Assembly: GCF_003334335.1 (NCBI RefSeq)
Contig: NZ_QOWQ01000001.1
Length of the DNA: 64,000 nt
Direction: 5' to 3' (one strand)
Source of the DNA: Escherichia coli
GTDB taxonomy: Bacteria; Pseudomonadota; Gammaproteobacteria; Enterobacterales; Enterobacteriaceae
Notes under the pieces: model-generated
What the model was told of the DNA's origin: nothing
The model's database searches: none
What the model saw: the letters and a program-made list of their open reading frames with translations, nothing else
Program-made: the position numbers and the translations under genes
Shown here: in pieces, positions 63,678-64,000 of the stretch
How the letters are laid out: the number at the start of each line of letters is the position of its first letter
Numbering within the stretch: position 1 is the stretch's first letter

Positions 63678-63755
63678 TGGCGAATTAATCAGCAGTCAGC
63701 AGCGTGGCACTTGCTAAGGAGAGCGTAAGGTTTATAATGCCTTACGCATCTCGAA

Positions 63756-63829
63756 GCGGGCGTAGTTCAATGGTAGAACGAGAGCTTCCCAAGCTCTATA
63801 CGAGGGTTCGATTCCCTTCGCCCGCTCCA
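63756..63829 (+). tRNA. glyU: tRNA-Gly (anticodon CCC)
   Basis: GCGGGCGTAGTTCAATGGTAGAACGAGAGCTTCCCAAGCTCTATACGAGGGTTCGATTCCCTTCGCCCGCTCCA: 7-bp acceptor stem, GTTCGATTC T-loop, anticodon loop CTTCCCAAG, encoded CCA; TTGCTA-N16-TATAAT promoter-like elements at 63712-63739. Confidence 0.95.
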
Positions 63830-64000
63830 ATTTATCTTCGCCGTAATACTTCCCCATTTTGTTGTAAATAAAAAGCGTTTACGCAATGCAATCCTTTTGT
63901 AACAACCCAGGTAAAACACCTTATTTTCAAGTTGTTAAATAAGTGGTTATCTACGCTTTTAACAAACGATTGATGGAATATTTTATGAAAGGGAAATCTG

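What the first reader, a model, noticed from the sequence alone, without database searches (positions are those of the whole stretch)
63700..64000. glyU tRNA at the window edge, a possible island attachment point with the far flank cut off
tRNA-Gly(CCC) ends at 63829, followed by AT-rich sequence and an ORF start (ATG at 63986, MKGKS...) that runs off the window. tRNA 3' ends are frequent integration sites; in some E. coli lineages a degenerate type III secretion island lies beside this tRNA. Whatever lies beyond 64000 may be strain-variable accessory DNA.
Basis: partly seen in the sequence, partly recalled or inferred. Interest (0 to 1): 0.35.

Follow-up and report, generated by a model that had tools for sequence, protein, structure and literature searches.

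The report
glyU tRNA beside degraded ETT2 island
This is the ordinary E. coli glycine tRNA gene glyU followed by the first ~100 bases of the well-known, decayed second type III secretion island (ETT2); the tRNA's 3' end is an empty landing site that mobile elements occupy in other strains, so the finding is correct but already known.

Summary
tRNA-Gly(CCC) lies at 63756-63829. A 31% GC spacer follows, then an ATG at 63985 (not 63986) that opens ygeQ. The window is E. coli, phylogroup-A-like. It differs from K-12 MG1655 by 2 SNPs in 21.5 kb and matches FORC 064 and other strains exactly over 25 kb.

In matching genomes glyU is followed by a low-GC (31-41%) remnant of ETT2, 12-19 kb long, which ends at yqeG. 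The region varies strongly between strains. About 17% of 5,426 complete genomes keep at least 80% of ETT2. Most carry deletion forms. B2-like strains have none, with glyU next to yqeG.

Comparison with an ETT2-free strain puts the island edge inside the window at 63893/63894, 64 nt past the tRNA. ETT2 has no integrase and no tRNA-derived repeat, so it is tRNA-adjacent rather than visibly att-integrated.

The last 17-22 nt of glyU (63808/63813-63829) are nevertheless a working attB. Integrase-bearing elements of 4.2, 6.4 and 13.9 kb sit there in other strains, flanked by exact repeats of this core. In the window the site is empty.

All of this is established biology, so interest is low.

The parts
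62922..63677 (+). actS (ygeR), LysM/M23 amidase activator; the conserved core gene upstream of glyU
   Evidence: Annotated in K-12 at L001 20423-21178, which is window +42499. The ORF list shows a longer TTG-start version at 62898-63677.
63711..63738 (+). sigma-70 promoter-like site (TTGCTA, 16 nt, TATAAT) placed to drive glyU
   Evidence: 10 of 12 consensus matches. This is a consensus match only, with 0.8 expected by chance in the region.
63756..63829 (+). glyU, tRNA-Gly(CCC)
   Evidence: ARAGORN; Rfam tRNA at 71.6 bits; annotated glyU b2864 in NC_000913.3.
63808..63829 (+). attB core used by integrative elements in other strains (17 nt TCCCTTCGCCCGCTCCA = 63813-63829; 22 nt version TCGATTCCCTTCGCCCGCTCCA = 63808-63829); unoccupied here
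   Evidence: Exact second copies of the 17-mer bound inserted elements in L003, L004, L005 and L008. There is a single copy in the window, K-12, Sakai, FORC 064 and the B2 empty site. The 22-nt repeats were read.
63830..63893 (+). native glyU 3' flank, shared even with ETT2-free strains; carries a lineage-specific 78-bp deletion whose junction is at about 63842|63843
   Evidence: B2 strain EC-16-526 is homologous to Sakai through 142 nt after the tRNA, and the sequence then joins the yqeG 3' flank. The window lacks 78 nt of that flank, starting 13 nt after the tRNA. The 78-mer is present in 4162 of 5426 genomes.
63894..64000 (+). first 107 nt of ETT2-island-specific DNA (ygeQ upstream region and start)
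   Evidence: Homology between the ETT2-free strain and Sakai stops at Sakai L002 47300, which corresponds to window 63893. Beyond that point the sequence is found only in ETT2-bearing genomes.
63985..64000 (+). 5' end of ygeQ (MKGKS...). In K-12/FORC 064-type strains this is a 264-aa truncated N-terminal half of a 536-aa GH15-like putative lipoprotein (ygeQ-ygeP, pkgA in Sakai)
   Evidence: 259/264 identities to the N-terminus of the intact 536-aa protein of JNEC-KY179. Weak Pfam Glyco_hydro_15 match, i-E 2.2e-4.

Best explanation
The window ends at the core/accessory junction actS-glyU | ETT2 of an E. coli chromosome. glyU is a normal, promoter-equipped tRNA-Gly(CCC) gene. A 64-nt native flank follows it. 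From 63894 onward the sequence is the left end of ETT2, the horizontally acquired, low-GC, SPI-1-like second type III secretion island, and it starts with ygeQ. In this lineage ETT2 is a non-functional remnant: ygeQ is truncated and the eiv/epa/epr genes are deleted or frameshifted. The remnant extends roughly 12-19 kb to yqeH/yqeG. This size is inferred from exactly or nearly matching genomes, not read from the window. Separately, the last 17-22 nt of glyU are an attB for tyrosine-integrase elements that occur in other strains, and that site is empty here.
For: Shown directly:
- The tRNA is confirmed.
- Window 42500-64000 differs from K-12 by 2 SNPs.
- Window 39001-64000 is 100% identical to FORC 064, NCTC9087, ML35 and other strains.
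- K-12 downstream order: ygeQ, IS2, orgA fragment, ygeK...yqeH, yqeG.
- FORC 064 downstream order: ygeQ, truncated eivJ, epaO-S, eprH-K, ygeK...yqeH, yqeG, with many pseudogenes.
- GC is 31-41% across the remnant and returns to 47-52% from yqeF onward.
- Sakai carries the 27.5 kb version, L002 19773-47299. K-12 lacks 16.9 kb of it, replaced by IS2.
- Population variability: 943 of 5426 genomes keep at least 80% of a 25 kb ETT2 query. Many have 58-79%, K-12 types have 31%, and B2-like genomes retain only the tRNA plus 142 nt.
- attB function: 6.4 kb (L003), 4.2 kb (L005) and 13.9 kb (L008) elements, and a tandem pair in L004. Each has a tyrosine recombinase and each is bounded by glyU and an exact repeat of its 3' end.
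- NCTC10973 carries such an islet on a flank identical to the window's.

Literature: ETT2 is 29.9 kb, lies adjacent to glyU and is 36.9% GC (PMC3977695, PMC11068852).
Against: The window stops 16 nt into ygeQ, so the ETT2 isoform of this particular strain is inferred, not seen. Strains with an identical core flank carry different downstream forms: K-12 has an IS2-linked 16.9 kb deletion, while FORC 064 and NCTC10973 have the common eiv deletion. Some genomes keep under 1 kb of ygeQ (H87-H89). No experiment here shows that the window's attB, which has a 78-bp deletion 13 nt away, is integration-competent. The NCTC10973 islet on the same flank only suggests it.
Confidence: 0.93

Rival explanations
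1. ETT2 itself is a classical integrase-mediated island that integrated into the glyU 3' end, so a tRNA-fragment repeat (attR) should lie at its far end beyond the window.
For: The island abuts a tRNA gene and has foreign GC content. [quoted passage not shown] The same tRNA end is demonstrably used by other integrases.
Against: No integrase or recombinase gene is annotated between glyU and yqeG in Sakai, K-12 or FORC 064. There is no second copy of the 17-nt tRNA end, even allowing 3 mismatches, in K-12, Sakai or FORC 064. The ETT2-free junction lies 142 nt (Sakai) or 64 nt (window) downstream of the tRNA, with only a 6-7 nt GCAATC/GCGAATC microhomology at the two island ends.
Confidence: 0.08
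2. The DNA beyond 64000 is the exact K-12 form: ygeQ, ygeP fragment, IS2H, then ygeO...yqeH, a remnant of about 12 kb.
For: The last 1.5 kb is 100% identical to K-12 strains, and there are only 2 SNPs in 21.5 kb.
Against: The two SNPs (46418, 52360) separate the window from both MG1655 assemblies. Non-K-12 strains that carry the ~18.6 kb common-deletion form match perfectly over 25 kb.
Confidence: 0.3
3. The glyU 3' flank is simply conserved core DNA and the tRNA has no role as a junction.
For: Window 63830-63893 is indeed conserved in nearly all E. coli, including ETT2-free strains.
Against: From 63894 onward the sequence is absent from B2-like genomes. Downstream GC falls to 31-41%. About 16% of genomes have the tRNA separated from its native flank.
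Confidence: 0.01

Closest known systems
[quoted passage not shown]
   Same: Same locus and same left-end sequence. The window aligns to Sakai across actS-glyU-ygeQ at about 98% identity apart from a 78-bp indel. It shows the same low GC and the same degraded state described in the literature (PMC3977695, PMC11068852).
   Different: Only the first 107 nt of the island fall inside the window. This lineage carries a truncated ygeQ and, by inference from matching strains, a deletion isoform rather than the 27.5 kb Sakai form.
K-12 MG1655 ygeQ-yqeH region (b2846-b2863)
   Same: glyU, its flank (including the 78-bp deletion) and the ygeQ start are identical.
   Different: The window has 2 SNPs relative to MG1655 further upstream, so it is a relative and not MG1655. 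The IS2H-linked 16.9 kb deletion may or may not be present.
Classical tRNA-integrated islands and satellites with tyrosine integrases (for example P4-type integrase islands, LEE at selC/pheU)
   Same: The glyU 3' end serves as attB for integrase-bearing elements in other E. coli strains, with exact 17-22 nt attL/attR repeats.
   Different: None of these elements is present in the window. ETT2 itself lacks the integrase, the repeat and a boundary at the tRNA end.
Salmonella SPI-1
   Same: ETT2 genes are inv/spa/prg/org homologues. This rests on the literature (PMC3977695, Table 1) and on annotation (OrgA/MxiK, PrgH/EprH, HilA-family YgeH).
   Different: From my own knowledge, SPI-1 is not tRNA-linked and is functional. 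ETT2 here is a remnant.

Membership tests
glyU tRNA-Gly(CCC) gene | Cloverleaf tRNA with anticodon CCC | tested here: met
   ARAGORN; Rfam tRNA 71.6 bits against a gathering score of 29.
glyU tRNA-Gly(CCC) gene | Chromosomal position downstream of actS (ygeR) and xdhABC, identical to annotated glyU b2864 | tested here: met
   100% identity over 62500-64000 to K-12.
ETT2 island (left end) | Begins next to glyU with ygeQ/ECs3737 | tested here: met
   The ATG at 63985 equals the ygeQ start. It aligns to Sakai ECs3737.
ETT2 island (left end) | Low GC (about 37%) relative to the chromosome | tested here: met
   Spacer plus ygeQ start is 31% GC in the window. The remnant is 31-41% GC in K-12 and FORC 064.
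ETT2 island (left end) | Carries SPI-1-like T3SS genes (eiv/epa/epr) or their remnants | not testable with these tools
   These genes lie beyond base 64000. They are present as pseudogene-rich remnants in perfectly matching strains and in K-12.
ETT2 island (left end) | Absent from ETT2-free strains, giving a defined empty-site junction | tested here: met
   In B2 strain EC-16-526, glyU plus 142 nt joins the yqeG 3' flank. The breakpoint corresponds to window 63893/63894.
Integrase-mediated tRNA-integrated island (att-flanked), applied to ETT2 | Integrase gene next to the tRNA | tested here: not met
   None is annotated in Sakai, K-12 or FORC 064 between glyU and yqeG.
Integrase-mediated tRNA-integrated island (att-flanked), applied to ETT2 | Direct repeat of the tRNA 3' end at the distal boundary | tested here: not met
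   There is a single copy of the 17-mer, allowing up to 3 mismatches, in L001, L002 and L010.
Integrase-mediated tRNA-integrated island (att-flanked), applied to ETT2 | Island boundary coincides with the tRNA 3' end | tested here: not met
   The boundary lies 142 nt (Sakai) or 64 nt (window) downstream.
Functional attB at the glyU 3' end (for other elements) | Elements with a tyrosine recombinase inserted exactly at the tRNA end, bounded by an exact repeat, with the native flank restored after the repeat | tested here: met
   L003 3075-9490, L005 5090-9271, L008 32250-46131 and the L004 tandem pair. Recombinase homology is shown.
Functional attB at the glyU 3' end (for other elements) | Site occupied in this window | tested here: not met
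   The window runs from the tRNA straight into the native flank and ygeQ, and has a single copy of the core.

The most novel reading that the evidence does not exclude
The glyU 3' end may be an under-described hotspot shared by several integrases. At least two unrelated tyrosine-integrase element families use the same 17-22 nt core: small islets with a 532-543 aa integrase, some carrying the anti-phage gene PD-T7-4, and a ~14 kb phage-like element. They sometimes sit in tandem, and roughly 8-16% of complete E. coli genomes are affected. The window would then hold an empty, competent copy of that hotspot. I found no paper in the searchable library describing glyU as an integrase target, but that library is incomplete.
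Probability: 0.3. Interest if true: 0.25.

Novelty: already known. Interest (0 to 1): 0.08.

Why it matters
It matters little beyond correct annotation. The result fixes the core/accessory junction to within a base or so (63893/63894) and identifies the truncated ORF as ygeQ. It also separates two ideas that are often merged. ETT2 is tRNA-adjacent without any visible att structure, whereas the tRNA end itself is a live attachment site for other small elements. That distinction is useful to anyone using tRNA-flank heuristics to call genomic islands.

Tried and rejected
1. Outgroup or ancestral-state test through genome contigs. A pattern of core plus 10 nt of flank returned 0 hits, which is unexpected and unexplained.
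2. The one enterobacterial locus with a long downstream flank (Superficieibacter, L041) has a 450-aa ORF after glyU that is not a yqeG homologue. It therefore says nothing about whether the B2 empty site is ancestral or a deletion.
3. NCBIfam gave no family for YgeQ or for the intact 536-aa protein. Pfam gave only a weak GH15 hit.
4. PADLOC on islet cargo gave one strong hit (PD-T7-4) and otherwise nothing convincing.
5. The terminator scan found no intrinsic terminator after glyU.
6. The repeat search of 63000-64000 found nothing relevant beyond the tRNA acceptor stem.
7. Several fetched loci never appeared in /data, so some comparisons used pasted sequence or the alignment tool.
8. My interim note placed the 78-bp deletion junction at 63845/63846. 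The correct position is about 63842|63843.

Full report
**Observation**

ARAGORN reports a single tRNA in the window: tRNA-Gly(CCC) at 63756-63829 on the + strand. Rfam's tRNA model agrees, with 71.6 bits and E 1e-13. A near-consensus sigma-70 promoter-like site (TTGCTA, 16 nt, TATAAT) lies at 63711-63738. The 156-nt spacer after the tRNA is 31.4% GC, against 51.5% for the whole window. Upstream lie actS (ygeR) at 62922-63677 and the xdhABC genes.

**Identity of the locus**

Window 62500-64000 matches 5,415 of 5,426 complete E. coli genomes. It is 100% identical to K-12 strains, where the features are annotated xdhA, actS, tRNA-Gly and ygeQ. In NC_000913.3 the tRNA is glyU (b2864), and the ORF that runs off the window is ygeQ (b2863).

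The window is not MG1655 itself. Positions 46418 and 52360 differ from two MG1655 assemblies. By contrast, window 39001-64000 is a perfect match to FORC 064, NCTC9087, ML35, O157:H16 98-3133 and other strains.

**What lies beyond base 64000, from matching genomes**

- In K-12, glyU is followed by ygeQ, a ygeP fragment, IS2H, ygeO/N/L/K pseudogenes, pbl, ygeI, ygeH, ygeG, ygeF, yqeK, yqeJ, yqeI and yqeH, and then the core gene yqeG.
- In FORC 064, a perfect 25-kb match, glyU is followed by ygeQ (the same 264-aa protein), a truncated eivJ, epaO-S, etrA, eprH-K, orgA and so on to yqeH. Many of these are frameshifted. This remnant is about 18.6 kb.
- GC is 31-37% across most of the K-12 remnant, higher over ygeQ and the IS2 insertion. 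It is 31-41% across the FORC 064 remnant, and in both strains it returns to about 47-52% from yqeF onward.
- O157:H7 Sakai carries the long form, from ECs3703 (yqeH) to ECs3737, next to glyU. K-12 lacks 16.9 kb of it (Sakai L002 29134-46076), with IS2 in its place.

This is the ETT2 island. The literature describes it as 29.9 kb, adjacent to glyU, 36.9% GC, and present in whole or in part in most E. coli but widely degraded (PMC3977695, PMC11068852). It is intact at glyU in E. albertii (PMC4700944).

**The ORF at the window edge**

K-12-type YgeQ (264 aa) is the N-terminal half of a 536-aa protein that is intact in strains such as JNEC-KY179, with 259/264 identities. RefSeq calls that protein glycoside hydrolase family 15. 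Pfam supports this only weakly (PF00723, i-E 2.2e-4), and NCBIfam has no model for it. The Sakai annotation splits it into ECs3737 and ygeP/pkgA (PMC3977695, Table 1).

**Strain variability**

A 25-kb Sakai query running from glyU into ETT2 gave the following:

- 943 of 5,426 genomes cover at least 80% of it.
- A large block covers 58-79%; the 64% class is the form seen in FORC 064, with the eiv region deleted.
- K-12 types cover 31%.
- Some genomes keep only 0.8-0.9 kb of ygeQ.
- B2-like genomes match only 216 nt, that is, the tRNA plus 142 nt.

In B2 strain EC-16-526, glyU is followed 316 nt later by yqeG.

**Where the island starts**

Aligning the ETT2-free junction to Sakai shows two blocks of homology. 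The left block runs through 142 nt after the tRNA, to Sakai L002 47300. The right block resumes at L002 19772-19779 in the yqeG 3' flank. ETT2 in Sakai is therefore L002 19773-47299, about 27.5 kb.

The window lacks 78 nt of the 142-nt flank, so the boundary maps to window 63893/63894. The last 107 nt of the window are island DNA, and 63830-63893 is native flank. Only a 6-7 nt similarity (GCAATC/GCGAATC) is seen at the two island ends. I could not decide whether the B2 state is ancestral or a deletion.

**Is glyU an attachment point?**

For ETT2 itself the classical signs are absent:

- No integrase is annotated between glyU and yqeG in Sakai, K-12 or FORC 064.
- There is no second copy of the tRNA 3' end, even allowing 3 mismatches.
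- The island boundary is not at the tRNA end.

The tRNA end is nevertheless a real attB for other elements:

- In JNEC-KY179, a 6.4-kb element (L003 3075-9490) begins right after glyU with a 532-aa tyrosine recombinase. It ends with an exact repeat TCCCTTCGCCCGCTCCA, followed by the native flank and ETT2.
- In NCTC10973, whose core is identical to the window, a related 4.2-kb islet (L005 5090-9271) has a 543-aa recombinase. It ends in a 22-nt repeat followed by exactly the window's flank, including the 78-bp deletion.
- In the ETT2-free APEC strain E18006, a 13.9-kb phage-related element (L008 32250-46131) sits between glyU and yqeG. It has a 406-aa phrog_1 integrase at its right end and a tape-measure-like protein.
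- Strain H19 carries both element types in tandem.

Frequency estimates are as follows. The phage-type integrase region is found at 80% coverage or more in 182 genomes. Sequences related to the islet occur in 526 genomes, although only about half of the sampled rows show the integrase end. In 862 of 5,413 genomes, no single place covers at least 80% of the tRNA plus native flank. That figure is an upper bound on occupancy, since it also includes flank loss. Occupancy is therefore roughly 8-16%. In the window the site is empty, with a single core copy and the tRNA contiguous with its native flank.

**The 78-bp indel**

Thirteen nucleotides after the tRNA, at about 63842|63843, the window, K-12 and related strains lack 78 nt that are present in 4,162 of 5,426 genomes. 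About one sixth of the sampled rows show the window's contiguous junction. The endpoints share TC[A/G]CC. By eye, the two flanking stretches resemble each other (CCATTTTKGYTGTA), which fits deletion between short imperfect repeats. This last point is my inference from the sequences.

**Comparison with known systems, and novelty**

Everything central here is established: the glyU gene, ETT2 adjacent to it, its low GC, its degraded state, and its K-12 remnant genes. The finding is a correct recognition of a known junction.

The extra details found here are minor, and most concern other strains. They are the exact boundary inside the window, the absence of an att structure for ETT2, the evidence that the same tRNA end is a working attB for two integrase families (one carrying PD-T7-4), and the 78-bp flank deletion.

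I found no paper in the searchable library that treats glyU as an integrase target. That library is incomplete, and tRNA-end integration of this kind is a familiar phenomenon.

**Verdict**

The feature is already known, and interest is about 0.08.

Noticed in passing
window 63842-63843 (junction); L004 17031-17108 holds the missing segment: A 78-bp deletion starts 13 nt after glyU in the window and in K-12-type strains. The segment is present in 4162 of 5426 genomes. It is flanked by short imperfect repeats and looks like a lineage marker.
   Followed up: partly
L004 8067-10326 (strain H19); also L003 3209-4807 and L005 5224-6855: Small islets at glyU encode an unusually long (532-543 aa) tyrosine recombinase. 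In H19 the adjacent DUF4145 gene is a full-length match to the anti-phage defence gene PD-T7-4 (E 1e-102). Cargo differs between strains.
   Followed up: partly
L008 32250-46131 (APEC E18006); left part of L004: A 13.9-kb phage-related integrative element sits at glyU. It has a 406-aa integrase, a tape-measure-like protein, an annotated major capsid protein in H19, and a second truncated recombinase. It is possibly a satellite-type element. Its integrase region is present in at least 182 genomes.
   Followed up: partly
L007 6001-6036 (plasmid pF1053-2, NZ_OY757951.1): A 36-nt exact copy of the glyU core plus 18-19 nt of the chromosomal flank lies on a 138-kb plasmid. It sits between a DUF6998 gene and an IS1 copy, and looks like an islet end plus chromosomal flank captured by IS activity.
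   Followed up: no
window 46418 and 52360: Two single-base differences from MG1655 (T for C, and C for T). They show that the window comes from a close relative rather than from MG1655 itself.
   Followed up: yes
window 5848-5998 (-), 6647-6830 (-), 20341-20418 (-): Rfam gathering-level hits elsewhere in the window: a Sib antitoxin RNA, 6S RNA (ssrS) and naRNA4.
   Followed up: no
window 56450-57050 and 57350-57800: Local GC dips to 35-41% around the ygeW-ygeV intergenic region and inside ygeV.
   Followed up: no
Genome-contig collection: The exact 27-nt pattern of glyU core plus native flank gave 0 hits in the species-representative genome collection, although an E. coli representative should contain it. 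This is unexplained.
   Followed up: no
H1 NZ_CP116152.1 857508-859785: Strain DETEC-P61 has an IS1 copy inserted within the actS-glyU-ygeQ stretch that is otherwise identical to the window.
   Followed up: no
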